Shown here one piece after another: positions 1-50,393 of a stretch of DNA of 64,000 nt. The notes beneath the pieces were generated by a model, which worked only from the letters and a program-made list of their open reading frames with translations, ran no database searches and was not told the DNA's origin. Position 1 is the first letter of the stretch, and each line of letters opens with the position of its first letter. Position numbers and translations under genes: made by a program. This DNA comes from Bacillales bacterium UBA4682 (GTDB lineage Bacteria > Bacillota_I > Bacilli_A > RFN20 > CAG-288): NCBI GenBank assembly GCA_002404995.1, contig DHKY01000014.1:7524-71523 (forward strand), in the 5' to 3' direction.

Positions 1-2
1 AT

Positions 3-1223
3 GTCCAATACGGTACGATTCCGACATATGACAAACAGTATCCAACTAGAGCCAAGGATGATGCCTATAGCTATGAATTCAGCGGATGGAATCCGTCAGT
101 CACGGCCGTGATTGGAAACCAAACTTATGTTGCTACTTTCTTCAAGACCAATAACCGGTATTTGGTTAAATTTGTCGATGAAGATGGTTCCCTTCTTCAA
201 AGCTCTTATGTAGACTATGGATCAACTCCATCGTTTAATCAATATTACAGTCCTAAAAAAGAGAGCACGGCCCAATATGACTATGTTTTTAAGGGATGGG
301 ACAAGGAACTATCTCCTGTTACGGAAGATGTAACATTTACAGCCGTATATAGCAAAAAAATCCGGTCGTATACCATAAAGTGGGTTGCGAATGGTTATAC
401 CATCAAAAGCGAACAGGTCGATTATGGCCAAATCCCAAATCAGCCTTCTTTGGCTGAGGTCCCAGATAAGAGTCCGTCCAATGAATACACATATCAATTC
501 AAGGGATGGGATAGAGAAATCGAAGCTGTAACCGGAAATACGACTTATACTGCCGTTTATGAAAGAAAAACAAGACAATATCTGGTTTCCTGGATGGGCG
601 AAAATGGAAACCTTCTTAAAAAAGAACAATGCGATTACCTGTCTTCCGTTGGCTCTTACACGCCTGATTTGACAGATAATCAGATTTTCATGGGATGGAA
701 GACCAATCAATCGAGGAGCGATTATTTGGCTTTCCCCTACACAATCACACAGGATGTTTCCTTTTATGCGACCATCGTGAACAAATTCGAGTTCACCTAC
801 CTACCACTTACCGATTCCTATTCCCTTACGAAGTCAGCTGGTACAAAAGACATGACTACTTTTCCCGCAACTTACGATGATGGGGTTCATGGCTTAAAGA
901 ACGTTACAGAAATCGGAACAAGTGCTTTTGAAGGCACTTCAATTACTTCCATGATCATTCCGGACACAGTTACATACATCCATGGTGAGGCATTCAAGAA
1001 TTGCGACTCTTTAGCAACTCTCTTCATTCCTTCCTCAGTCACCAACATCCAAGAAGGCGCTATTTACGGAGATTTGAATCTTTCTGTTTATTGTGAAGCT
1101 GAAAGAAAGCCAGAAACATGGGATGATTACTGGAATGTTGTTCACTATGTTTCTGGAAAGACTAATCATTTCTCAAATGATACCTTTAATAAAAATATCG
1201 AATGGGGCTATTCAAAAGGATAA
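3..1223 (+). CDS. Cell-surface protein, 5'-partial (reading frame is open from the window start). Has repeated Listeria-Bacteroides/InlB B-repeat (Flg_new-like) modules, motif Y.FKGWD....TYTAVY, and a C-terminal BspA-type leucine-rich repeat.
   Basis: Frame 3 has no stop from nt 3 and already encodes the repeat motif (YSYEFSGWNPSVTAVIGNQTY) upstream of the first ATG at 108. There are at least four tandem ~70-aa repeats. The C-terminus has the TpLRR-like 'IPDTVTYIHGEAFKNCDSLATLFIPSSVTNI'. Confidence 0.7.
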   Translation, partial: VQYGTIPTYDKQYPTRAKDDAYSYEFSGWNPSVTAVIGNQTYVATFFKTNNRYLVKFVDEDGSLLQSSYVDYGSTPSFNQYYSPKKESTAQYDYVFKGWDKELSPVTEDVTFTAVYSKKIRSYTIKWVANGYTIKSEQVDYGQIPNQPSLAEVPDKSPSNEYTYQFKGWDREIEAVTGNTTYTAVYERKTRQYLVSWMGENGNLLKKEQCDYLSSVGSYTPDLTDNQIFMGWKTNQSRSDYLAFPYTITQDVSFYATIVNKFEFTYLPLTDSYSLTKSAGTKDMTTFPATYDDGVHGLKNVTEIGTSAFEGTSITSMIIPDTVTYIHGEAFKNCDSLATLFIPSSVTNIQEGAIYGDLNLSVYCEAERKPETWDDYWNVVHYVSGKTNHFSNDTFNKNIEWGYSKG

Positions 1224-1325
1224 AGACCAAATAGTTTTTTGCACGTTATTCTAATCTAGAAATCAATTGGATAGACTGCTATTGGCAGTAATAATCTTCT
1301 TTTGAGTTTTCTAAGGATCTATTGG

Positions 1326-1410
1326 TTAACCCCGTGCAGGTTCAATTTCTGTCGTCCGCACCAACTCAAATGTAATGGCCTCCGATTCCTAGAAAGGAAA
1401 TCTCGGAGGT
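1326..1410 (+). repeat. Partial 3'-end copy (~85 bp) of the ncRNA-like element annotated at 3597..3928. It includes the tRNA-like 'GGTTCAATTyCTGTCGTCCGCACCA' and a hairpin/T-run terminator.
   Basis: GGATCtATTGG...CCGTGCAGGTTCAATTtCTGTCGTCCGCACCA + GCCTCCG-loop-CGGAGG-TTT aligns with 3831..3928. Sequence upstream of 1326 is unrelated. Confidence 0.6.
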
Positions 1411-1692
1411 CTTTATTATTTCCGAGCAGGTGTGGGTATGGACCCAAAATTCAACGCATATAAGGCTGGAATGGATATCGTTTTAGAAAGGTACCCTTGT
1501 GGTAGGGGAAACGGTCAAAGACGAGGTGCCGTTTATTACTAATGCAAATGCGATTGTGGAAAAGAGTTCATCGTTTCTGGCGATGAATTATCGCGCCACC
1601 CTTATTCTTGCGATTGCACGCCTAAACCAATTGTTGAAGGCGACCGTTCCAATGAGTGGGCTCTTGGGTTTCAGGATGGAACGGCTCTATGC

Positions 1693-1901
1693 ATGATTAA
1701 GCCGACAAGGAGAGTATATTTTTCATCGAAATCAGGCGTTTCTGGCATTGTCTGGGATGAGCGAAGAAAGAAATACTATGTGTCCGTTACCTTGTGTGGG
1801 AAGACCTATTTTCTAGGCTTTTTGCGGATAAAGATGAGTCCATAAAGGCCAGGGTTGCCGGCGAACAAAAATACCTCGATCCTTTATTGTCGAATCAATA
1901 G
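1693..1901 (+). pseudogene. AP2-domain protein remnant (HNH homing-endonuclease- or integrase-associated type), disrupted by a frameshift in a T5/T6 run.
   Basis: Frame 1 gives MIKPTRRVYFSSKSGVSGIVWDERRKKYYVSVTLCGKTYFLGF, then a frame slip, then ADKDESIKARVAGEQKYLDPLL. Together these make a canonical AP2 fold signature (YRGV.W....KW.A.I...GK...LG.F...EEAA.AY). Confidence 0.4.
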
Positions 1902-2126
1902 TTTGAGAAATCTTCTTTATAAAAGGTTCATGTGGTAAACTAATTATGCAGCCAACGAATCTTCAAGCTTCCGGGTTTGTGGAAGCCGACGAGCCAATCT
2001 TCTGTAATGCTATTAAGAGGATTACCCATTAGAGGTTCATAGCGATAGGTCGCTCTATCAGCTTGTCAAATGCATTCTTAAGCTGCAGACAGGAGGAAGA
2101 GTCTTTTTGCGTTCCCAAAACGCATT

Positions 2127-3059
2127 ATGAAGACTTCAGAACAAACTATGGATCTCAACAGAGAGACCGCTATGCGACTTTGGAATAAGCGTTATGGCAA
2201 AGCGACCACCGTGAAGGATTTCACTGGTCGTGAAATGGCCAAGGGCGCTTATAACGACCGCAATAGCGCAAAAGGGTGGAACGTAGATCACATCCTACCG
2301 CAAAGCAAAGGCGGTGCTACGGCCGAGCACAACTTGGCCATCTGCAACATTCAAACTAATGACGAGAAGGCGGATAAGTTCCCGAGCTTTAAAGCAAACG
2401 GAATCGTCTTTGATATCGTCAAAGTCCAGAACCATTACGAATATCGCAAACGCGAAGATTCTCCGAAAGTGGAAGAGGACGACGGGGATGTCAACTTCAT
2501 GGATTCCGCTTCCGGAATTCGCTTCTTTAAAGATTTGAAAGGAATCCAGAACAAGCCACGTTTTGTAGGTTCTATTCTAATCAGACTCAAGAATGTCGAG
2601 TCTACAGCGTTAATCGACATGATTGAAAAGTACTTCGACAAAGAGAACATCTCTTACTCTATGAGCAAAGCTTATTGCTCCGACGTAACCAGAATCATCG
2701 CCAAAAACTACAATATGCCGTTGAAAGATGATATTTCTGAACTACTTGATAAATGTATCGTCCTCAACACCTATTTGGGGCATTACTTCTTACCGATGAA
2801 ATATATCAGTGGTTACGATATTATTTTTAGAACAGATTACTTCGAACAGAAAGAGGAAATGTACATCAAGTCCCAAGGAATTGATTTCAGAGAAATCGAA
2901 AACACTGGATTCGACAATAAGCTGTTCATCAACTATATGGTTTGGAACAACAGCGAAGCCAAGGGGAAGATGCAATTCGACTCTTCTGGTTACGAAGCAT
3001 ACGATTACGTCTATACGGAATTAGCAAAAAACTTAGATAAGGAGGTTAATAGGGAGTAA
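2127..3059 (+). CDS. HNH-nuclease-domain protein. The HNH motif is N-terminal and is followed by a ~220-aa C-terminal domain of unknown function.
   Basis: GWNVDHILPQSKGGATAEHNLAICNIQTNDEKAD is a His-Me finger/HNH signature. The ORF is intact at 310 aa. Confidence 0.7.
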   Translation: MKTSEQTMDLNRETAMRLWNKRYGKATTVKDFTGREMAKGAYNDRNSAKGWNVDHILPQSKGGATAEHNLAICNIQTNDEKADKFPSFKANGIVFDIVKVQNHYEYRKREDSPKVEEDDGDVNFMDSASGIRFFKDLKGIQNKPRFVGSILIRLKNVESTALIDMIEKYFDKENISYSMSKAYCSDVTRIIAKNYNMPLKDDISELLDKCIVLNTYLGHYFLPMKYISGYDIIFRTDYFEQKEEMYIKSQGIDFREIENTGFDNKLFINYMVWNNSEAKGKMQFDSSGYEAYDYVYTELAKNLDKEVNRE

Positions 3060-3196
3060 GCAAGATACTCTGCCTCCTGAAAGCCATATAGAAGCGGTCA
3101 GCGACGACCGCTTTTTTCTATGAAGCAATCGACTATACCGAAACCAAACAAATTGCGAATAGTCGAGTGGTTTACTAATAAAAAGAGGAAAAACAT

Positions 3197-3427
3197 ATGG
3201 CCATTATTGAAACTGAAGAAGAGGTTGTTGAAGAAATTCCAAAAGTAGTCGAAGCCGAACCATTGACCCAAAAAGAAATCGAGACAATTGCAGGAGAACT
3301 TATCGAAGCAAATCCGGAAAAGCAAAAATTGATGGTTGATAACATCTACGCAAAGTCCGCTACCGTTTTTTTAAATGTGGAGTCCCCGGTTGATTTCCTG
3401 TCGCCTTTCCTGCATCTGAGGCCGTAG
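3197..3427 (+). CDS. Small acidic hypothetical protein (76 aa).
   Basis: ORF with an AG-rich RBS (aaaagaggaaaaacatATG). No recognisable domain. Confidence 0.3.
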   Translation: MAIIETEEEVVEEIPKVVEAEPLTQKEIETIAGELIEANPEKQKLMVDNIYAKSATVFLNVESPVDFLSPFLHLRP

Positions 3428-3563
3428 CTTATGATCTCGTTGTCCCAGAGATCCATGTAAAGGGTGAGCCCGCAAAAAAATGCGTCCACATACCTTAAAC
3501 AGAACACAATAGAATCCTTTCCTACCATCGAAAAAAGTTCGATGAAATCTTTGTTTTTTCCTA

Positions 3564-3591
3564 TTGTATTCGCATTTTGTTTTGTTATAAT
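3564..3591 (+). promoter_or_regulatory. Sigma-A-type promoter of ncRNA-like element copy 1: -35-like TTGTAT and an extended -10 TGtTATAAT.
   Basis: TTGTAT-N16-TGTTATAAT. The -10 element and the downstream start region are conserved in the inverted copy at ~6991. Confidence 0.5.
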
Positions 3592-3596
3592 GCTCT

Positions 3597-3928
3597 CAGG
3601 AACGAAGGCGGTTCCAACCGATGAAACACCATCGACTGGGAGGCTCTAAAGCAGAGCTTGCCATGGTTGTCCGCTTTTGTCCGCAGCCCGTCCGCAAAAG
3701 CCAATGTACGCAAGGTGTTGGCATTCTTTTTCGTACTTTGGGCTGGAAACAAATACGCTATTTTCCGTCCTGTTCCTATCATGTACTCTTTTGTCTTCTA
3801 AATTAAGGAAAAGGATATGTAGGACTTAGAATCCATTGGAGCAATCCGTGCAGGTTCAATTCCTGTCGTCCGCACCAGTAAAAATAAAAGCCTCCGGTTC
3901 CTTCTTGGGATAACCGGAGGCTTTTTTT
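3597..3928 (+). ncRNA. Unclassified structured ncRNA-like element, copy 1 (~330 nt). It runs from the promoter to an intrinsic terminator. It has a 5' hairpin GGAACGAAGGCGGUUCC and a tRNA-like 3' end ...GGUUCAAUUCCUGUCGUCCGCACCA, then a GCCUCCGG...CCGGAGGC-U7 terminator.
   Basis: No ORF. About 75-80% identical to the inverted copy at 6603..6985, with perfectly conserved blocks interspersed with substitutions. It has its own promoter and terminator. Confidence 0.5.
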
Positions 3929-3973: not shown

Positions 3974-4674
3974 GAGAAGGATAAACAATAGTGTTGCTAT
4001 CCTCAGCATGCGGTATAATCCTTCTGCTATATCAGAGGGGTTCCGAGGCCAGCAACAGGCTGATATAGCAACTTTCTCCTGTGGAAGCGGAAGATGCAGA
4101 GAATCCCGGAAAACGCCTCGGACACAGTGCTTTCCGAAAAAGTCTGGGTTGACCACACCTACATAAACGCGCCGATGTCGGTACGGAAAGGAAAGAAAAA
4201 GTGTGGACTGTCGAAACACCTCCTCCAGGTCGCGGCAGGCATCGGCTCTCACGGCCATGTGCTTCTCCGGCTCGGGAGCTGGGGAATGGCCGGAACGGGC
4301 GATTCGAAGGATGCGTTCCTCGGACATATAGCCCCTAGCTCCGTCGTCTGCCACGACAAGGGGCACTTAGGCGGATGCTTCCCGGGGTGCTGGGAGGTGG
4401 CAGTGAACTCAGAGGACGGAGAAGCACATGGGCTCCTCAATCCGGTCAACCGGCTGTAAGCCCAGGTCAAGCGCAAGTTTACCGTGCACCTGCGGATCCA
4501 CCGCAAGAACGTTCCCCTATGGCTTAACGAGAAGGCGTTCCAGAGGGAAAGGATGGGGAGCCTGGGTTTCGACGGATACCTGTCGTTCTTCTATAAAACC
4601 ATCTTCCTATCCAGGAAAACACTCAGAAGACGCGAGGTTTTCGGGAATTAGCAACACTATTGTTTATCCTTCTC
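3974..4674. mobile_element. MITE-like non-autonomous element A (701 bp), bounded by 24-bp terminal inverted repeats GAGAAGGATAAACAATAGTGTTGC. The interior is GC-rich and non-coding.
   Basis: The left end GAGAAGGATAAACAATAGTGTTGC equals the reverse complement of the right end GCAACACTATTGTTTATCCTTCTC. The same terminal inverted repeats are found at 5714..5861 and 13255..13713. Confidence 0.55.
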
Positions 4675-5044
4675 ATAAAAAAAGATTATATCGAATTTTC
4701 CGATGCCATAATATGAAACTAACGTGTTGAATTTAAGGGGTGCTGACACATTTTATTCAGTCTTAATTCGTTACTGTAAAATGGTTTGGGTTTCCCGGTT
4801 CCTTCATTCTTTTCTATATTGTTTCTAACGTGATTTCGTAAAAGTAAGAACAAATAAGTCCTTTTCAGATGCTCGATATTGTAGAAGCCATCAATCCGGT
4901 TTAGAAGAATTCTAGCGGTTCATTTTGCATTGTCCTAGCTCATATTGTTTTCTTCGATTCTTAGTGCTGACCGAAAAGGTTTGAATGTCTGGGTCTGGAT
5001 TCTTTGCTTTGTTTCTTGTTTGGAATAGGAATTTTAATTTATCG

Positions 5045-5713: not shown

Positions 5714-5861
5714 GAGAAGGTTAAACAATAGTGTTCCCAGTTCTCGGGCGCAGTATAATTCCTGTATTACGTTGCTGTAGTTCCGAGGCCGGCCTCAGGA
5801 TGATATAGAAGAAAGATTATACCGCATGCTGAGGATAGCAACGCTATTGTTTATCCTTCTC
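5714..5861. mobile_element. MITE-like element B (148 bp), the minimal member of the same terminal-inverted-repeat family. It contains the palindrome GAGGCCGGCCTC.
   Basis: Terminal inverted repeats TTGAGAAGGTTAAACAATAGTGTT / AACGCTATTGTTTATCCTTCTCAA. The first ~65 nt (as reverse complement) are ~90% identical to element A's left end. The core is shared with element C. Confidence 0.55.
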
Positions 5862-5873
5862 AATAACATTGTC

Positions 5874-6509
5874 TTAAAAAACATATTCACCCCCCTTTTC
5901 AAATAATAATAATATCTCGCCCAAGCTATCATGAACTGAGCTAATGGTCGAAGTGCTGATACCTATTTCTCCTTTTCCTATTACAAAATCACAGCACATT
6001 AGTTGTAAATTAGAAGCGTTTGTCGCTTGTAGTCTATCCCACTCTACGCTAAAAGATAAATTTAATGGATTAACCTTATCAGCGAATTCATTTATATTAT
6101 GTAAGTTCAAGTCAATTGAAAACTCATCGCTATGCATTTCAACAGTCATCCTTTGACGGGGAAACACCAAATCGTATCGTTTATTATTTGCATCCTCCAA
6201 ATTGATTCCCTCGGATTTAAAACAATAAGTAACATTAAACTTATCACTATCAGCTGGAGTCCAATATCGTTGATAATTATTTGTTTTAAACACACTATAA
6301 AAAATAGAATATTCATCGAATGATTCGAAAATATATGTGCCAACAACTTTGCTGTTTGGACCGCCTTCAATAATTTTAACATCTGAAACATCATCACTGC
6401 TCAATGCACCATCACTCATTCCGCTGGAAGTATATGTGGTATGTGAAGTACAACTTGATAAGGAAAAAATCACCAGTAGAGTTGCAATTAACACTCTATC
6501 CTTTTTCAT
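5874..6509 (-). CDS. Lipoprotein (211 aa).
   Basis: MKKDRVLIATLLVIFSLSSC lipoprotein signal peptide and lipobox. Confidence 0.6.
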   Translation of the reverse strand: MKKDRVLIATLLVIFSLSSCTSHTTYTSSGMSDGALSSDDVSDVKIIEGGPNSKVVGTYIFESFDEYSIFYSVFKTNNYQRYWTPADSDKFNVTYCFKSEGINLEDANNKRYDLVFPRQRMTVEMHSDEFSIDLNLHNINEFADKVNPLNLSFSVEWDRLQATNASNLQLMCCDFVIGKGEIGISTSTISSVHDSLGEILLLFEKGGEYVF

Positions 6510-6602: not shown

Positions 6603-6985
6603 AAAAACAAAAATAGACCACCCAACCCTACTATTGCTAATAGGATTAAGCGGTCTTTTATTATGCTTTAGCCAATGCTTTCTTAAGTGTGTTTATACTC
6701 GCCTCGATCTGGGCATTGATCTAGGTGTCGACGTCAACAAAGTTCTTGTTGATGTAGTCCTAGAGAAGGGGTTCATCCCTAAGGTTCCTTAAGGAGCTTA
6801 GAAGAGATAAAAGACGAATTTGAGCGCATTTGTTGCCAGTCAAGACAACGAAAAAGAATGCCAACCACTCGCTTTGATTGGCGTTGCGGACAGGCTGCGA
6901 ACAATAGCGGACGGCTATGGCAGGACCTGATTTTGAGACCCTTGAGCCGATGGAGTTTCACCAGTCGGAACCGCCTTCGTTCCTA
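6603..6985 (-). ncRNA. Unclassified structured ncRNA-like element, copy 2, in inverted orientation. It has the conserved -10 GCTATAATGC, the 5' hairpin GGAACGAAGGCGGUUCC, and ends in an intrinsic terminator (~6603-6660) about 95 nt upstream of the lipoprotein gene 6509..5874.
   Basis: The reverse complement aligns with 3470..3870 over ~350 nt, with identical blocks such as CCTTAAACAGAACACAATAGAA, GGAACGAAGGCGGTTCC and TTGGCATTCTTTTTCGT. It lacks the CCA-type 3' end of copy 1. Confidence 0.45.
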
Positions 6986-7347
6986 GTTGCATTATAGCAA
7001 ACGGAAATGCGTTTTCAAATAGAAATTTCATCGAATTTATCGAAACTTTTTGGATGCTAGAATAGGGTTCTATTGTGTTCTGTTTAAGGGCTATGGACGC
7101 ATTGGTTTTGCTTAAATTCATTCAATATCGATAGGTTATTTACTCTTCTTGAAAATCACTTTAACCGCCGTGGTACAATAAATATAGAATCACGTTTTCT
7201 AATATCAAATAATTAAGTGCTATGGTTCCAAGTTACTATTTAAGTAACTAATCTGGTGAAATTGCCAGATGCATTGCCGTTTGGAACTGTTGAAAAAATG
7301 GGGAAATACTTTGGTAGTGTTGAGACTTCATAAAAGGAGACATTAAA

Positions 7348-20676: not shown

Positions 20677-20974
20677 GTCTTAAAATATCATTGTTCAATA
20701 ACATTGTTGCATAGCCAAGAATTCAAATAATCTACCACTTAATTCAATAAGATAACTATATTTCGAGCAATAATTGCTTTATCAAAACAGTCTTTTCAAA
20801 GATAAATGCGAGACGAAATATTTTTTGTGCAGATTTCATCACAATATTTTAAGTTTCAAAATTCCGATTATTTTGATTTTATAAATCGTCTTTTATAATT
20901 TTATGATTTGTTACTGCTTAACATTGAGTTTTTTTCTCAATTTTAATACAATATTTAAAATGGAGGCAGGATTT

Positions 20975-22240
20975 ATGCTTTTACAGTTCAATTTCGAAAA
21001 CTATGGTCCTTTCAAAGAAGAAGCATCGCTAAACCTTGAAGCAGCACCCTATGCTGAATTCAAAGAACAGATTCGAACAATCGGGAACAAGAAAATTCTT
21101 CCTTTAGCCGCTATCTATGGTGCAAATGCCAGTGGAAAGTCTTTTACCTACAACGCTTTCAATTACAGGAAGTTCAGGGTGCTTTTTTCCAGGAGCCTTG
21201 ATTTAGAAAAAAGCAAAACGACCCTTAATCCTTTTCCGGAAGCAGTGCCTTTCCGATTAGACAAAGAAAGTGAAAACAGTCCTTCCTCCTTTGAAGTGAT
21301 CTTAACCTCCGAAATAGACGGGAAAGAAATCACTCTTCAATATGGATTTTCTGTATTTCAGCGCCAGATTGTTAAAGAATGGCTTTATCAACTTCCTCAG
21401 CGGAGTACTTCTGCCGTAAAAGAATACCTCTTGCGAGACAGAGAAACTATTAGTATAAAGATTCCCGAATTAGATGATTCCATCAAAACAACTTTAGAGA
21501 AATCTACTCCTTCTTCAGCACTTGTCTTATCTTTTGGTTCCAGACTAAATGTGGAACCATTTAAAACTATTTTTAACTTTTTTAATATTTCCTTAGTTAC
21601 CGACTTTGGTAACCTTTCTGAAATGTTTTTCCGTGAGCACCTGCTTCCTATAGGTATAGCTGAAAACAAAGAAAGCCTATCGGATTGTGTTTCGTTTCTT
21701 CAGAGCTTCGAACCTTCTATCAAGAATATTCGATTAGAGGAAATCAAGCAGGACAATAATCAAAAGCAATATTTTATTAAAACCATACATAGAACGATAA
21801 ACGGAGAAGAAGTGGAATTTCGAAGGGAAAACGAATCCTCAGGAACAAAGAAAAGGTTCCAATTCTATAGTTTTCTTCGCCAGGCAATCAGTACGGGAAG
21901 TGTCCTTTTCGTTGATGAACTCAATTCACGTCTTCATCCTCTGCTTTTGCGGAATATTCTTCTGCTTTTTCTTTCCCAGGAAAAGAATCCAAACCATTCA
22001 CAGCTAATTTTCACTTGCCATGAGCCTTGGCTGTTAAGCGCAAAAATTCTACGCCGCGATGAAATTTACTTTACAAACAAAAATCTCAAAACCCAAGCTT
22101 CTGAGCTCTATTCCTTGGCTGAGTTCAAAGATGAAAAGGGAATGAAAATACGTTCCGATGAGGACTTTGAAAAGAATTACCTTCTCGGAAAATATGATGG
22201 AATCCCCGTTCTTTCAAATATGGGAATAAAAGGAGAATAG
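20975..22240 (+). CDS. AAA_21/OLD-type ATPase (AbiLi-like) of a two-gene abortive-infection-type module.
   Basis: FNFENYGPFKEEASLNL...IYGANASGKS N-terminal Walker A typical of AAA_21/AbiEii-like ATPases, and FVDELNSRLHP Walker B. Start chosen after the GGAGG RBS. The ORF track's upstream extension begins at 20903. Confidence 0.65.
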   Translation: MLLQFNFENYGPFKEEASLNLEAAPYAEFKEQIRTIGNKKILPLAAIYGANASGKSFTYNAFNYRKFRVLFSRSLDLEKSKTTLNPFPEAVPFRLDKESENSPSSFEVILTSEIDGKEITLQYGFSVFQRQIVKEWLYQLPQRSTSAVKEYLLRDRETISIKIPELDDSIKTTLEKSTPSSALVLSFGSRLNVEPFKTIFNFFNISLVTDFGNLSEMFFREHLLPIGIAENKESLSDCVSFLQSFEPSIKNIRLEEIKQDNNQKQYFIKTIHRTINGEEVEFRRENESSGTKKRFQFYSFLRQAISTGSVLFVDELNSRLHPLLLRNILLLFLSQEKNPNHSQLIFTCHEPWLLSAKILRRDEIYFTNKNLKTQASELYSLAEFKDEKGMKIRSDEDFEKNYLLGKYDGIPVLSNMGIKGE

Positions 22241-22244
22241 GCAA

Positions 22245-22895
22245 ATGGGACTTGGCAGACCAGGGAAAAAGCCCCGAAAGCAAGGGTCACGACGAGAACT
22301 TTTTGAAAATATCCTGATTGTTACGGATGGTGAGAAAACAGAAGCTAATTATTTTCAGGGACTACGTAATTCATTTCCTGAGCCTATCAGAAATAAGATA
22401 AGCATAAAAATCCTAGCTAAGCTTGATACACAAGAACTTGTTGAACGATCACTGAAAGAACAGAGAGAAGACCCTAGGGAACGGGAAATCTGGATAGTTT
22501 TCGATAAAGACAATCGGCCTGATGATTTTGACAGAATAATATCAAGTGCCAAAAAGCATGGTATTAATATTGCTTGGTCCAATCCCTGTATTGAGATTTT
22601 CTTTCACGCTTATTATGGGAAAAGGCCGAAAAACACAGATGCAAAGCAATGTATTTCTGCTTTTTCTATCGATTTTCAAAAAGCAACCAAGAAAGAATAC
22701 TTGAAAAACGACAAAGAAATTTATGATATCCTGTGTCATTCAGGAGATGAGAAGAAAGCTATTGAATTTTCCAAAAAGAAATTAAAGCAATCAATAAATG
22801 AAGCCGAAAGTAAAAAGCCTTCTTCTTATTGTCCGGGTTCTACTCTTCATGAATTAGTTGGTAAAATCACAAGCCATCGCCCGGAGAACAAATAA
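22245..22895 (+). CDS. RloB-like protein (TOPRIM-like, AbiLii-like partner).
   Basis: ILIVTDGEKTEANYFQGL matches the RloB N-terminal hallmark (ILIVcEGEKTEpnYF). It starts 4 bp after the ATPase stop. Confidence 0.65.
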   Translation: MGLGRPGKKPRKQGSRRELFENILIVTDGEKTEANYFQGLRNSFPEPIRNKISIKILAKLDTQELVERSLKEQREDPREREIWIVFDKDNRPDDFDRIISSAKKHGINIAWSNPCIEIFFHAYYGKRPKNTDAKQCISAFSIDFQKATKKEYLKNDKEIYDILCHSGDEKKAIEFSKKKLKQSINEAESKKPSSYCPGSTLHELVGKITSHRPENK

Positions 22896-48978: not shown

Positions 48979-49139
48979 CCATTGACTCTTTTCTTTCTAC
49001 GACTATAATTCTCAATCGGAAATGATGTCTTCCAGATATAGGGTCTGCCTATATCAAACCGCTTTGGATTATAAAGCTGATGACGTCTATGCTGGTTTTC
49101 AGCATAGAGGAAATCAGCTTTTTTCATAGGAGGTAGAAG

Positions 49140-50393
49140 ATGTCTATTTTCTTCACTTTGTTTCTGATTATTTTCGGAGGTGTGGTTCTTAACAAGCTGG
49201 CAAAGAGGGTTCATGTTCCTCCTCTTGTTCTGTATCTGCTTTATGGCATTCTTCTTTCTGTATTAGAAGAAAAGTTCGATTCTTCCTTTACTTTCCTCGA
49301 TTCCGGAGTCAGGAATATTTCTTCAGCTATTCGGAAGGTCGCCTTAATTATCATTCTTCTTAAAGCAGGGCTCTCTCTTAATCTATCCGATTTAAAGAAA
49401 GTTGGTAGACCAGCTATTCTAAGGTCTTTTCTTCCAGCCTGTACGGAAAGGGTAGCCGTAGGTATCTTTGGCAAGAGGATTCTGGGTTTAAGCTACACTG
49501 AGAGTTTTCTTCTTGGTTCCGTGCTTGGCGCCGTTTCTCCGGCAGTTGTCATTCCGAGGATGTCAAAACTGAGGGATGAGAAATACGGTACCGAAAAAGG
49601 AATTCCACAGCTTGTCATTGCCGGAAGCAGTATCGATGACATTATCAGGATTGTCTTTTATCAATGCTTCTTGACTAGGGAAAAAGGAGGAAGCCTTTCA
49701 GTGAGGACTTTCCTGAATATCCCCATTTCCATTGTCACAGGTGTCGGTTTGGGAATCCTTTTGGGTAGGCTCTTATCTTTTGTCTTTGATAAAGCAAAAA
49801 GGAACGATACCCTAAAACTGCTACTTCTTCTTTCCATCTGTTTCGGGCTTACTTATTTAGAAGACCTTGTCTCTCCTTATTTTGGATATTCTTCCCTTCT
49901 TTCCATCATTACCTGTGCCATTGTCCTCCATAAGAAAATAGAACCGGTATCCTTAGATCTTAAGAATAAGTTCAATGAAATCTGGTACTTAGCTGAAATC
50001 TTCCTTTTTGTCTTAGTCGGAGCGGGAATCAAGATTGAATATGCCGGCAAATTCTTCCTGCCTGCCCTTCTCCTGCTTTTGATTTCCCTTGCCTTCCGCA
50101 GCTTAGCTGTTACTGGTTGTTTAGTAAAAACCAAGCTGAACTGGAAGGAAAGAGGCTTTGTTGTCATAAGCTATCTTCCGAAAGCGACAGTCCAGGCCGC
50201 TATTGGAGGAGGATTATTGGATCTTGGGAACCAGCTTCTGGCCTCGGGAGCTGCAAATGCAGAAAGTGTCATAGCCGCAGGCACGATTGTTTTATCCGTT
50301 TCAGTCCTTGCTATTCTTCTCACTGCGCCAGCTGCAGCAATTTCAAGGAACCTTCTTTATCCCCATAGGCTGAGAAGAGAAGAGTGCAAATAG
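49140..50393 (+). CDS. Cation:proton antiporter-like membrane transporter (CPA/NhaP-like).
   Basis: About 12 transmembrane segments, 417 aa. N-terminal pattern typical of Na+/H+ exchanger family proteins. Confidence 0.55.
   Translation: MSIFFTLFLIIFGGVVLNKLAKRVHVPPLVLYLLYGILLSVLEEKFDSSFTFLDSGVRNISSAIRKVALIIILLKAGLSLNLSDLKKVGRPAILRSFLPACTERVAVGIFGKRILGLSYTESFLLGSVLGAVSPAVVIPRMSKLRDEKYGTEKGIPQLVIAGSSIDDIIRIVFYQCFLTREKGGSLSVRTFLNIPISIVTGVGLGILLGRLLSFVFDKAKRNDTLKLLLLLSICFGLTYLEDLVSPYFGYSSLLSIITCAIVLHKKIEPVSLDLKNKFNEIWYLAEIFLFVLVGAGIKIEYAGKFFLPALLLLLISLAFRSLAVTGCLVKTKLNWKERGFVVISYLPKATVQAAIGGGLLDLGNQLLASGAANAESVIAAGTIVLSVSVLAILLTAPAAAISRNLLYPHRLRREECK

What the first reader, a model, noticed from the sequence alone, without database searches (positions are those of the whole stretch)
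3470..3928. Unclassified ~350-nt structured-RNA-like element with its own promoter and terminator, in two diverged inverted copies plus a 3' fragment
Region 3470..3928 (+) and the reverse complement of 6603..7140 align over ~350 nt. Perfectly conserved blocks (CCTTAAACAGAACACAATAGAA, the extended -10 TGTTATAAT/GCTATAATGC, the 5' hairpin GGAACGAAGGCGGTTCC, TTGGCATTCTTTTTCGT) are separated by heavily substituted stretches. That pattern fits selection on an RNA structure better than a decaying protein gene, and neither strand carries a credible ORF. Copy 1 ends in a tRNA-like T-arm/CCA (GGUUCAAUUCCUGUCGUCCGCACCA) followed by an intrinsic terminator. Copy 2 ends in a different terminator ~95 nt upstream of the lipoprotein gene 6509..5874, so it could alternatively act as a cis-regulatory leader. 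I could not match it to tmRNA, RNase P, SRP, 6S, T-box or the common riboswitch classes.
Basis: seen in the sequence. Interest (0 to 1): 0.8.

Follow-up and report, generated by a model that had tools for sequence, protein, structure and literature searches.

The report
Mobile-cassette attachment arm carrying a small RNA
The repeat is the conserved end-piece of small mobile gene cassettes, mostly carrying anti-phage defence genes, that slot into the anticodon loop of a leucine tRNA gene in uncultured gut bacteria; it also carries its own promoter and a roughly 135-base folded RNA that matches no catalogued RNA family.

Summary
Window 3476-3829 (+) and 7107-6753 (-) are about 76% identical. About 39 copies (32 distinct sequences) occur in 33 related loci from uncultured gut "Mollicutes"/Bacilli.

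The repeat is not a single 350-nt RNA. The "T-arm/CCA" end of copy 1 is a displaced 3' half of tRNA-Leu(UAG). It is joined to the conserved module exactly at the anticodon loop (TGTAGGA|CTTAG). Across loci, module variants and at least 8 different tRNA-Leu halves are freely reassorted at that point. Strains with 99% identical left flanks differ by whole 1.5-2.6-kb cassettes bounded by it.

This is the signature of site-specific recombination. The module is the conserved arm of tRNA-Leu-integrating islands and of their miniature, integrase-less derivatives, which stack into arrays. Only decayed tyrosine-integrase remnants, and one full-length relative, were found near such sites.

Inside the arm lies a conserved extended -10 promoter. 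It is followed by four hairpins that are kept only on the promoter strand, with compensatory and G-U changes. The last hairpin is an intrinsic terminator, giving a roughly 135-nt RNA with no Rfam match.

The RNA's role is unknown. Four CGTCCGCA boxes, three of them in helical phase, look like integrase arm sites. I rate this a new variant of a known kind, of moderate interest.

The parts
3476..3829 (+). Module copy 1. The conserved arm runs from the distal box ATGCGTCCAC to the core-proximal TGTAGGACTTAG.
   Evidence: Alignments A1-A3 and nhmmer. It is 100% identical to L002 module A up to the core.
3583..3591 (+). Extended -10 promoter TGtTATAAT of copy 1. The -35-like TTGTAT lies 16 nt upstream. 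The inferred transcript start is about 3598.
   Evidence: Read from the sequence. TTTG.TATAATGC is nearly invariant in 30 copies.
3598..3733 (+). Predicted small RNA of about 135 nt. It has invariant 5' hairpin H1 (3598-3615), hairpins H2 and H3, a single-stranded stretch with three GUCCGC repeats, and terminator hairpin H4 (3700-3722) plus AUUCUUUUU.
   Evidence: RNAalifold and pair counts. Consensus energy is -20.2 kcal/mol on this strand and -6.0 on the reverse complement. The terminator scan finds H4. Transcription itself is inferred, not shown.
3669..3696 (+). Three direct GTCCGC boxes starting at 3669, 3679 and 3690, spaced 10 and 11 bp apart. A fourth box lies at the left edge (3482-3487, GCGTCCAC). 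These are candidate arm-type binding sites for the recombinase or an accessory protein.
   Evidence: Some copies have lost exactly one 10-12-nt repeat unit. The binding role is an inference.
3818..3831 (+). Recombination core. TGTAGGA is the conserved end of the arm. CTTAGAA is the 7-nt anticodon loop of tRNA-Leu(UAG).
   Evidence: All copies break homology here. A three-way junction places the crossover within TGTAGGACTTAG.
3825..3877 (+). Displaced 3' half of tRNA-Leu(UAG), from the anticodon loop to CCA ('type A', acceptor strand CGTCCGC).
   Evidence: ARAGORN finds no complete tRNA in the window. The intact tRNA-Leu(tag) in L024 matches its module-linked fragment from CTTAG onward. BLAST hits to mycoplasma and phage sequences cover only this part of the query; no feature is annotated under those hits, and I read them as tRNA genes.
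3890..3928 (+). Intrinsic terminator that travels with the tRNA half, not with the module.
   Evidence: Fold. Each tRNA-half type has its own terminator sequence.
6753..7107 (-). Module copy 2, of the 'type 2' arm. Promoter TTGAAA-16-TGcTATAAT lies at 7018-6991. H1 is at 6984-6967. Terminator H4 is at 6882-6860. The arm ends in TCTAGGACT, after which non-tRNA sequence follows.
6603..6752 (-). Right-hand flank of copy 2. It is not tRNA-derived and is not part of the conserved module. It includes the hairpin and T run at 6656-6615.
   Evidence: right-side cluster R3, unique to this locus.
4681..4760 (-). Truncated third module. Only the upstream ~80 nt remain. It is cut off where the IS1595-like remnant ends (4675).
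   Evidence: nhmmer E=8e-6, model positions 33-114; sequence.
1311..1418 (+). Module-less tRNA-Leu 3' half (CTAAGGA...CGTCCGCACCA, 1311-1363) with its terminator. It marks the left end of the 2.5-kb cassette that ends in module copy 1.
1438..1836 (+). Pseudogene of the AP2-like 160-aa protein. In related loci this is the first gene after a tRNA-Leu 3' end.
   Evidence: tblastn shows 54% identity over 138 aa. The gene sits at this position in L015, L023, L060 and L067. The AP2 Pfam hit is weak, E=7e-4.

Best explanation
The repeat is the conserved right-hand attachment-site arm (a 'P arm') of a family of genomic islands, and of their integrase-less miniature derivatives. These insert by site-specific recombination into the anticodon loop of tRNA-Leu(UAG) in uncultured gut Bacilli/'Mollicutes'.

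Each element has three parts: a tRNA-Leu 3' half with its terminator, cargo that is mostly anti-phage defence genes, and the ~355-bp module ending in TGTAGGA-CTTAG. I infer that integration rebuilds the tRNA with the element's own 3' half and pushes the previous 3' half behind the module. Repeated events then stack cassettes into arrays whose joints are 'module + someone else's tRNA half'.

The recombinase is most likely a tyrosine integrase. Full-size islands would supply it in cis, and the 1.5-2.6-kb cassettes would receive it in trans. This step is inferred. The four CGTCCGCA boxes, three of them in helical phase, are the likely arm-type protein-binding sites. That is also inferred.

Embedded in the arm is a conserved extended -10 promoter. 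It reads towards the core and should produce a ~135-nt RNA with three 5' hairpins, a GUCCGC-repeat linker and an intrinsic terminator. The structure conservation is shown here; transcription is inferred. My best guess for the RNA's role is that it is an element-borne regulatory RNA tied to the recombination or maintenance of the cassettes, rather than to any cargo gene.
For: 1. Homology between all copies ends at one point, TGTAGGA|CTTAG(G/A)A. To its right each copy carries one of at least 8 different tRNA-Leu(UAG) 3' halves, or non-tRNA DNA in a few copies.
2. Arms and right-hand sides are reassorted: arm L0 occurs with R0, R1 and R11; R0 with L0, L2 and L16; R1 with L0, L4 and L5.
3. Strains whose left flank is 99-99.5% identical to window 1-3829 carry four different arrays to the right of the core. 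L002 has exactly one extra 2,622-bp cassette. In the three-way junction the window equals module A (100%) on the left and the right flank of module B on the right. The crossover lies within the 12-bp TGTAGGACTTAG.
4. L024 has an intact tRNA-Leu(tag), then ~6.9 kb of island, then a module whose tRNA part repeats the intact gene from CTTAG onward.
5. Cargo is dominated by defence genes.
6. Integrase traces exist. A truncated Phage_integrase (E=6e-23) lies in the module-bearing array L033. Differently truncated homologues lie 4.3 kb from an intact tRNA-Leu(tag) in L060 and L061. A full-length 321-aa relative sits next to a homologue of the window's HNH gene, 3.4 kb from a tRNA 3' end.
7. RNA evidence. 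The promoter is conserved. In the first count 95.6% of pair cells are paired, against 29-54% when partners are slid. Double changes number 14 to 26 cells, against 5 to 12 in shuffles. Consensus folding energy is -24.6 kcal/mol on the promoter strand and -7.1 on the other strand. The H4 terminator is found in both window copies.
8. There is no coding signature.
Against: - No intact integrase is linked to any module in the sequence I examined: about 425 kb of the window and related loci for the motif scan, and a subset of that for Pfam. None lies in the 64-kb window. The enzyme and current activity are therefore not shown.
- The integrase remnants are not adjacent to a module.
- The diversity of acceptor-stem sequences within one array is hard to reconcile with every insertion rebuilding a working tRNA. 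Insertion may instead occur at existing module cores.
- A 355-bp one-sided arm is long for a tyrosine-recombinase att site.
- Covariation rests on 24 closely related sequences. Only 6 to 9 pairs show double changes, and the shuffle control ignores relatedness.
- H1 is invariant, so it is uninformative.
- No expression data exist.
- No empty site could be demonstrated for L024 against L051.
Confidence: 0.6

Rival explanations
1. The module is a free-standing small-RNA gene family. It is a multicopy trans-acting or protein-sequestering sRNA that merely sits in a recombination hotspot. In this view its DNA has no role in recombination.
For: The promoter, strand-specific hairpins and internal terminator are conserved. 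The RNA segment is the best conserved part of the module, with mean column entropy 0.43 against 0.54 upstream and 0.67 downstream. Three single-stranded GUCCGC repeats could titrate a protein.
Against: Conservation extends ~120 nt upstream of the promoter and ~100 nt past the terminator, right up to the crossover point. The module always ends at the core. The 10-11-bp phasing of the boxes, plus a fourth box outside the transcript, points to DNA binding. The RNA hypothesis alone does not explain cassette gain and loss exactly at the module edge.
Confidence: 0.15
2. The module is an outward-facing promoter plus a regulated leader or attenuator. After excision, the circular form would place the module upstream of the element's left-end genes (AP2-like gene, integrase). 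Read-through past H4 would then switch those genes on, as with junction promoters of IS elements and Tn916. In arrays it would read into the next cassette.
For: The promoter points at the core in every copy. H4 is a modest terminator that could be regulated. The AP2-like gene is the first gene after the tRNA half in many loci.
Against: A second, strong terminator follows every tRNA half and would block read-through. Many cassettes have no AP2-like or integrase gene downstream. Downstream genes often lie on the opposite strand.
Confidence: 0.1
3. The module RNA is a guide or bridge RNA for an RNA-directed recombinase or nuclease, like an IS110 bridge RNA or a TnpB/IscB omega RNA. In this view the scaffold is the conserved module and the variable flank acts as the guide.
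For: The RNA is encoded at an element end and is transcribed towards a sharp boundary, after which the sequence is target-derived.
Against: I saw no IS110-type, TnpB or IscB family next to any module, though only the 25 commonest Pfam families of the 118 neighbour ORFs were visible, so a single occurrence is not excluded. The predicted RNA terminates ~90 nt before the boundary. Variable hairpins H2 and H3 do not co-vary with the tRNA-half type or with flank sequences, by inspection of A3 and the table.
Confidence: 0.04
4. The modules are only homologous-recombination anchors. In this view they are repeats that let cassettes be swapped by RecA after DNA uptake, with no site-specific step.
For: Repeats of ~355 bp at 76-95% identity flank variable cargo.
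Against: The one clean junction has its crossover in the last 12 bp of the module, next to where homology ends, and the module itself is not chimeric. All copies share the same sharp right-hand boundary inside a tRNA anticodon loop. Duplicated tRNA halves are the hallmark of integrase action (PMC4383910).
Confidence: 0.06
5. The hairpins function in single-stranded DNA. They could act as a single-strand origin or as an HUH-transposase end recognised on one strand during transfer, and not as RNA.
For: The structure is kept on one strand only, and G-T pairs are tolerated. The element is mobile.
Against: A canonical double-stranded promoter sits exactly in front of H1 and a terminator after H4. 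The hairpins lie 100-230 nt from the element end, unlike IS200/IS605 ends. I saw no HUH or Rep family among the neighbours, with the same top-25 limit as above.
Confidence: 0.03

Closest known systems
Genomic islands integrated in tRNA or tmRNA genes by tyrosine integrases (the principle used by the Islander database, PMC4383910)
   Same: The target is a tRNA gene. The element carries a replacement 3' part. The displaced tRNA fragment marks the far end. The crossover lies in the anticodon loop, flanked by the anticodon stem.
   Different: Most units here are 1.5-7 kb and have no integrase. One end is a ~355-bp module conserved across otherwise unrelated cargo, and that module contains a promoter and a structured RNA.
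Tycheposon arrays in Prochlorococcus islands (bioRxiv 10.1101/2020.12.28.424599)
   Same: Successive integrations occur at one tRNA. [quoted passage not shown] Newer elements push older ones inward. Fragmented integrases and extra partial tRNAs are scattered in the island.
   Different: The host lineage and the tRNA differ. Tycheposons usually carry their own recombinase (474 of 501). As far as I read that paper, no conserved RNA-bearing arm is described.
CIMEs, the cis-mobilisable elements of Streptococcus thermophilus ICESt1/ICESt3 (accretion-mobilisation model; from my own knowledge, not checked here)
   Same: Both are integrase-less DNA segments bounded by att sites. Both are thought to be moved in trans by a related element's integrase, and both build tandem arrays.
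   Different: CIMEs sit at the 3' end of fda, not at a tRNA. No embedded small RNA is known there.
Integron gene cassettes (from my own knowledge)
   Same: Both form arrays of small cassettes that lack a recombinase. One recombination site per cassette marks each joint, and insertion occurs at a fixed chromosomal site.
   Different: I saw no IntI gene or attI site. The site here is ~355 bp with conserved sequence, not a 60-140-nt attC hairpin conserved in structure only. The cassettes here have terminators and a promoter.
Phage lambda attP arm-type sites (P1, P2, P'1-P'3; from my own knowledge)
   Same: Short direct repeats in helical phase, plus a distal copy, lie 130-340 bp from the core on an arm needed only in attP and attR.
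   Different: Binding was not tested here. The arm is longer and is transcribed.
IS110 bridge RNAs and TnpB/IscB omega RNAs (from my own knowledge)
   Same: A non-coding RNA is encoded at the end of a mobile element and points at the element boundary.
   Different: I saw no matching recombinase or nuclease. The RNA ends before the boundary. There is no guide-like covariation.

Membership tests
Any Rfam 15 family (tmRNA, RNase P, SRP, 6S, T-box, riboswitches, known sRNAs) | A covariance-model match at or near the family's gathering score | tested here: not met
   There is no hit on either copy at gathering threshold. In E-value mode the hits overlapping a copy are all at or beside the terminator after copy 1's tRNA half, the best being Phe_leader at 25.5 bits against a cut-off of 55. 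Seven further loci with modules give 0 hits at E<=1.
Complete tRNA gene or tmRNA | A full cloverleaf, with 5' and 3' halves that pair in the acceptor stem | tested here: not met
   ARAGORN finds no tRNA or tmRNA in the window. No complement of the acceptor strand (GCGGACG) occurs in the module. Only the part from the anticodon loop to CCA is present.
tRNA-gene-integrating genomic island (att site) | A displaced tRNA 3' fragment that repeats the 3' part of an intact copy of the same tRNA at the other end of the island | tested here: met
   L024 has an intact tRNA-Leu(tag) at 5844-5927. Its module-linked fragment at 13039-13098 matches from CTTAG through the T-arm, and two bases differ in the acceptor strand. 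The intact tRNA for the window's own array lies outside the window.
tRNA-gene-integrating genomic island (att site) | Presence/absence polymorphism of the element with breakpoints exactly at the core | tested here: met
   The window and L002 differ by one 2,622-bp cassette, with the crossover inside TGTAGGACTTAG. Four array variants follow a 99% identical left flank.
tRNA-gene-integrating genomic island (att site) | An integrase gene inside the element | tested here: inconclusive
   I found none in the window or in most cassettes. A truncated Phage_integrase lies in array L033, and further remnants lie next to an intact tRNA-Leu in L060 and L061. A full-length relative lies in L067-69. None is directly linked to a module.
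tRNA-gene-integrating genomic island (att site) | Recombinase binding to core and arm sites, and excision to a circle | not testable with these tools
   This needs protein-DNA binding assays, PCR, or split-read analysis of raw reads.
Integron | An IntI integrase with an adjacent attI site, and attC sites that fold as imperfect hairpins | tested here: not met
   I saw no integrase at the array start in L024, L050 or L051. The module consists of several small local hairpins with conserved sequence, not one long attC-type hairpin.
IS110 bridge RNA or IS200/605 omega RNA | An adjacent DEDD recombinase, TnpB or IscB, and RNA loops or a 3' guide matching the target and donor flanks | tested here: not met
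   No such Pfam family appears among the 25 most frequent families of 118 neighbour ORFs, nor in 37 ORFs from related loci scanned one by one; singletons are not excluded. The RNA terminates ~90 nt before the boundary. There is no covariation with the flanks.
Bacterial small RNA gene (generic) | Own promoter, conserved strand-specific structure, intrinsic terminator, and no coding signal | tested here: met
   Transcription itself was not tested because no expression data are available.

The most novel reading that the evidence does not exclude
Cassettes without an integrase form an integron-like, tRNA-anchored array of defence genes. The ~135-nt RNA embedded in every cassette's attachment arm would be a working part of the recombination machinery. 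It could be a cofactor or a switch that lets a recombinase supplied in trans recognise or time recombination at the anticodon-loop core. That would be a new RNA-assisted cassette-capture system in uncultured gut Bacilli.
Probability: 0.12. Interest if true: 0.85.

Novelty: new variant of a known kind. Interest (0 to 1): 0.55.

Why it matters
If this reading is right, these small-genome gut bacteria keep a swappable rack of mostly anti-phage defence genes at one tRNA-Leu gene. The rack is built from miniature cassettes that share a single conserved end-piece.

- **Marker.** The end-piece offers a simple sequence tag, AGGAACGAAGGCGGTTC ... TGTAGGACTTAG, for finding such racks and their cargo in metagenomes. 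That cargo includes many genes of unknown function that may be new defence systems.
- **Open question.** It raises a concrete, testable question about how integrase-less cassettes move.
- **RNA candidate.** It adds an uncatalogued, well-delimited small RNA whose constant link to a recombination site suggests a role in controlling mobility.
- **Annotation caution.** A tRNA-like 3' end next to a conserved non-coding block can be a recombination scar rather than part of an RNA gene.

Tried and rejected
- **Rfam.** The window at gathering threshold, the region at E<=10, and seven other module loci at E<=1 gave nothing relevant.
- **Phage and plasmid collections.** BLAST matched only the tRNA half.
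- **IMG/VR viral contigs.** Three pattern scans gave only chance matches, checked with nhmmer.
- **GTDB genomes.** The exact 22-mer gave 0 hits. A degenerate H1/H2 pattern then gave 4 loci.
- **Protein-coding reading.** A 95-108-codon frame runs from ATGAAATC to the anticodon TAG and is open in many copies. I rejected it because there is no third-position bias, no Shine-Dalgarno sequence, and indels break the frame.
- **Split or permuted tRNA, or a group I intron in the anticodon loop.** I rejected these because no 5' half or acceptor complement occurs upstream, and the anticodon-stem pairing with TAGGA is inconsistent between half types.
- **Guide or bridge RNA.** I found no covariation with the flanks and saw no partner enzyme.
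- **Search for the recombinase.** Pfam on the window's ORFs of at least 150 aa, apart from internal ORFs overlapping longer genes, and on 118 neighbour ORFs, plus a motif scan of 425 kb, found only one truncated integrase.
- **Following the integrase's homologues.** This gave decayed copies next to an intact tRNA-Leu and one full-length relative, but none next to a module.
- **Walking from the DegV gene beside tRNA-Leu.** This gave two more intact tRNA-Leu loci with variable islands, but no module and no clean empty site.
- **Long-range pairing.** GUCC with the core's GGAC, and an alternative 5' helix seen in the single-sequence fold, are not supported by variation.
Full report
**1. The observation**

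Window 3472-3759 (+) and the reverse complement of 6823-7111 align without gaps at 76% identity, E=1e-53. Copy 1 continues into a T-arm, an acceptor 3' strand and CCA. A long GC-rich hairpin with a U run follows. Copy 2 continues into unrelated sequence with a different terminator-like hairpin, about 105 nt before the lipoprotein gene. The '3' fragment' is at 1311-1418. I found one more piece at 4681-4760 (-): the first ~80 nt of a module, cut off by an IS remnant. No Rfam family matches, and ARAGORN finds no tRNA or tmRNA.

**2. Relatives elsewhere**

Contigs that encode the neighbouring HNH protein (2127-3059) carry two or three further copies each. All lie on one strand, 1.5-2.6 kb apart, with different genes in between. 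A degenerate pattern taken from the invariant hairpin found more loci:

- 4 loci in GTDB genomes, titled 'uncultured Mollicutes bacterium' UMGS153 and UMGS237, 'Bacillales bacterium UBA4694', and a 'Roseburia hominis' bin.
- 25 metagenome loci.

nhmmer finds 39 more or less complete copies with 32 distinct sequences. None is in the phage, plasmid or IMG/VR collections. Those collections matched only the tRNA part or gave chance words.

**3. What the 3' end is**

In the 30-sequence alignment conservation runs from about ATGCGTCCGCA..CCTTAAATAGAAC to TATGTAGGACTTAG and stops there. To the right, each copy has a different sequence. Most are unmistakably the 3' half of a tRNA-Leu(UAG): anticodon loop CTTAG(G/A)A, a long variable arm, the T-arm GCAGGTTCRAWTCCTG, an acceptor strand and CCA. 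At least eight different acceptor strands occur, each with its own terminator. Three copies, including window copy 2, have non-tRNA DNA, or only a few tRNA bases, after the core.

L024 holds an intact tRNA-Leu(tag). About 6.9 kb downstream lies a module whose tRNA part repeats the intact gene from CTTAG onward. This arrangement is the textbook mark of integration into a tRNA gene. The island restores the gene, and the displaced fragment marks the far end (PMC4383910).

**4. Recombination happens at that point**

Clustering left arms and right sides separately shows free reassortment. Arm L0 occurs with right sides R0, R1 and R11. R0 occurs with L0, L2 and L16. R1 occurs with L0, L4 and L5.

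Loci L002/L027, L003/L004 and L019 are 99.0-99.5% identical to window 1-3829 but carry different arrays to the right of the core:

| Locus | Array to the right of module A's core |
|---|---|
| L019 | tRNA half C, then an AP2-like remnant and an RNase III-like gene |
| Window | tRNA half A, then an IS remnant |
| L002 | a 2,622-bp cassette (half B, AAA_14/DUF4143 gene, two small ORFs, module B), then the window's half A |
| L003 | two cassettes, of 2,634 and 1,549 bp |

Sources for the table are.

In the three-way alignment the window equals L002 module A (100%) up to TGTAGGACTTAG. From there on it equals the right flank of L002 module B. Modules A and B differ at many positions to the left of that point. 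The crossover is therefore confined to 12 bp at the very edge of the repeat. That argues for site-specific rather than homologous recombination.

The window's own left-hand cassette runs from the module-less tRNA half at 1311 to the core at 3829. It holds an AP2-like pseudogene, a Staphylococcus-1 RNA, the HNH gene, a 76-aa ORF and module copy 1.

**5. Cargo and recombinase**

Genes between modules are mostly defence-type:

- GmrSD
- AAA_21
- ResIII
- SMC_N
- Schlafen-type helicase
- Eco57I/N6_Mtase
- KAP NTPase
- Wadjet JetA/JetD
- nSTAND3
- Fic
- AAA_14/DUF4143

I saw no recombinase family in the window's ORFs of at least 150 aa. A motif scan of 425 kb of loci found a single tyrosine-recombinase fragment, in L033, confirmed as Phage_integrase at E=6e-23. 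It lies 9 kb from a module. Its close homologues (64-98% identity) are all truncated at different N-terminal points, so they are decaying genes.

In L060 and L061 such a remnant lies 4.3 kb from an intact tRNA-Leu(tag). The gene order there is tRNA, AP2-like gene, 969-aa gene, 226-aa gene, integrase remnant. A full-length 321-aa relative (52% identity) lies in L067-69. It sits directly upstream of a Staphylococcus-1-like leader and a homologue (55% identity) of the window's HNH gene. It is 3.4 kb from a tRNA 3' end that is again followed by an AP2-like gene.

This fits a picture in which full-size islands with an integrase insert at tRNA-Leu, decay, and leave miniature derivatives that keep both ends. 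The window's 2.5-kb cassette looks like such a derivative of an island of the L067 type. Tandem stacking with partial tRNAs and fragmented integrases is described for tycheposons (bioRxiv 10.1101/2020.12.28.424599). Which enzyme moves the small cassettes today remains unknown.

**6. The arm as DNA**

Three GTCCGC boxes start at 3669, 3679 and 3690, spaced 10 and 11 bp apart. A fourth lies at the module's left edge. The boxes are nearly invariant, and some copies have lost exactly one 10-12-nt unit. Direct repeats in helical phase plus a distal copy resemble the arm-type sites of lambda-like attP regions. This comparison comes from my own knowledge, and binding was not tested. The motif also equals the acceptor 3' strand of tRNA half A. 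It does not change in hosts with other acceptor stems, so I treat that match as coincidence.

**7. The arm as an RNA gene**

TTTG.TATAATGC, an extended -10, is nearly invariant. Type 2 copies add a good -35, and the scan scores copy 2 at 11 of 12. Seven bases downstream starts the invariant AGGAACGAAGGCGGTTCC.

RNAalifold on 23 copies predicts the following helices:

- H1 at columns 2-6/14-18, which is invariant.
- H2 at 22-26/34-38.
- H3 at 45-50/59-64.
- H4 at 105-110/122-127.

The terminator scan finds H4 independently in both window copies, as GCCAAT..ATTGGC followed by ATTCUUUUU.

Pair counts are as follows. In the first count 95.6% of cells pair, against 29-54% when partners are slid. 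The covariation score is 0.22, against 0.04-0.09 for slid partners. Cells with double changes number 14, rising to 26 with extended helices, against 5 and 12 in shuffles, and 0 of 500 shuffles reach the observed value. Many positions alternate G-U with G-C or A-U. Accordingly the consensus energy is -24.6 kcal/mol on the promoter strand and -7.1 on the reverse complement. For the first 135 nt the values are -20.2 and -6.0.

The last ~100 nt before the core show almost no consensus structure, at -1.8 kcal/mol. Substitutions show no codon periodicity.

The conserved structure therefore belongs to a ~135-nt RNA (3598 to about 3733, and 6984 to about 6850) rather than to the whole 350 nt. The evidence has limits. 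The sequences are closely related, only 6 to 9 pairs show double changes, and there are no expression data.

**8. How it most likely works**

The following is shown:

- a sharp common boundary in the tRNA-Leu anticodon loop
- reassortment of arms and right-hand sides
- cassette-sized polymorphism with the crossover in 12 bp
- promoter and structure conservation on one strand

The following is inferred:

- A tyrosine integrase, acting in cis for full islands and in trans for mini-cassettes, exchanges strands in CTTAG(G/A)A next to TGTAGGA.
- The CGTCCGCA boxes are arm sites for the integrase or for an accessory protein such as the AP2-like protein encoded beside the tRNA half.
- The small RNA is made from every cassette end and acts on recombination or maintenance rather than on cargo.

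I put about 0.6 on this composite. The rivals are listed with their evidence: a plain sRNA family, an outward promoter with an attenuator, a guide RNA, homologous-recombination anchors, and single-stranded DNA structure.

**9. Novelty**

Integration into tRNA genes, tandem accretion and integrase-less derivatives are all known. I did not find two features described elsewhere. The first is a ~355-bp conserved arm shared by many otherwise unrelated mini-cassettes. The second is the uncatalogued small RNA inside that arm. I rate the finding a new variant of a known kind, with interest 0.55. It is an ordinary class of phenomenon with an unusual, testable twist, in an uncultured lineage.

Noticed in passing
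window 1952-2082 (+): A Staphylococcus-1 RNA (RF03112, 109.9 bits against a cut-off of 87.7) lies directly upstream of the HNH-type gene 2127-3059. A similar leader precedes the HNH homologue in L067 (about 4560-4700), right after a full-length integrase gene. The RNA and the HNH gene therefore look like a conserved pair carried by these islands.
   Followed up: partly
window 3975-4675 and 5715-5865: A GC-rich ~700-bp element is bounded by 24-bp inverted repeats (GAGAAGGATAAACAATAGTGTTGC). A ~150-bp miniature with the same ends lies at 5715-5865. The longer one matches an IS1595-type transposase region in L002 (15012-16039) at 85-94% identity, so these are deletion derivatives of an IS. The longer one truncates a third module copy.
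   Followed up: partly
L015, L019, L021, L024, L031, L050 (for example L024:6369-7340 (-)); AP2-like gene for example L060:4362-4847: A 324-aa RNase III-like protein with a dsRNA-binding domain, and a 160-aa protein with a zinc-ribbon-like motif and a weak AP2 domain, are the recurrent first genes after a tRNA-Leu 3' end. Their function is unknown. They could be accessory factors of the island or a defence module.
   Followed up: partly
window 49009-49096 (+): A fluoride riboswitch (RF01734, 43.1 bits) lies upstream of a Na+/H+ exchanger-family gene (49140-50393). This is an ordinary arrangement.
   Followed up: no
window 20903-22895 (+): An AAA_21 ATPase and an RloB-like protein form a pair of likely defence genes. 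They lie outside the cassette array, beyond the zinc ABC transporter genes.
   Followed up: no
L024:13190-13290: Just after the module-linked tRNA fragment there are about four tandem ~22-bp repeats (GGAAACAAAAAACCACAAAAGTT). They look like iterons and could be an origin or a binding array of the next element.
   Followed up: no
L033:1-3328 (-), L060:95-4329 (+), L058, L062: The decayed integrase is always followed by a ~200-aa protein and a ~950-aa protein. The 969-aa protein in L060 ends in what looks, by eye, like a Hint-type domain. The trio is conserved although the integrase part is broken in different ways.
   Followed up: no
window 3481-3829 and homologues (alignment A3): The module is unusually free of stop codons in several frames on both strands. 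The longest frame ends exactly on the anticodon TAG. It shows no coding signature, and I have no explanation beyond base composition.
   Followed up: partly
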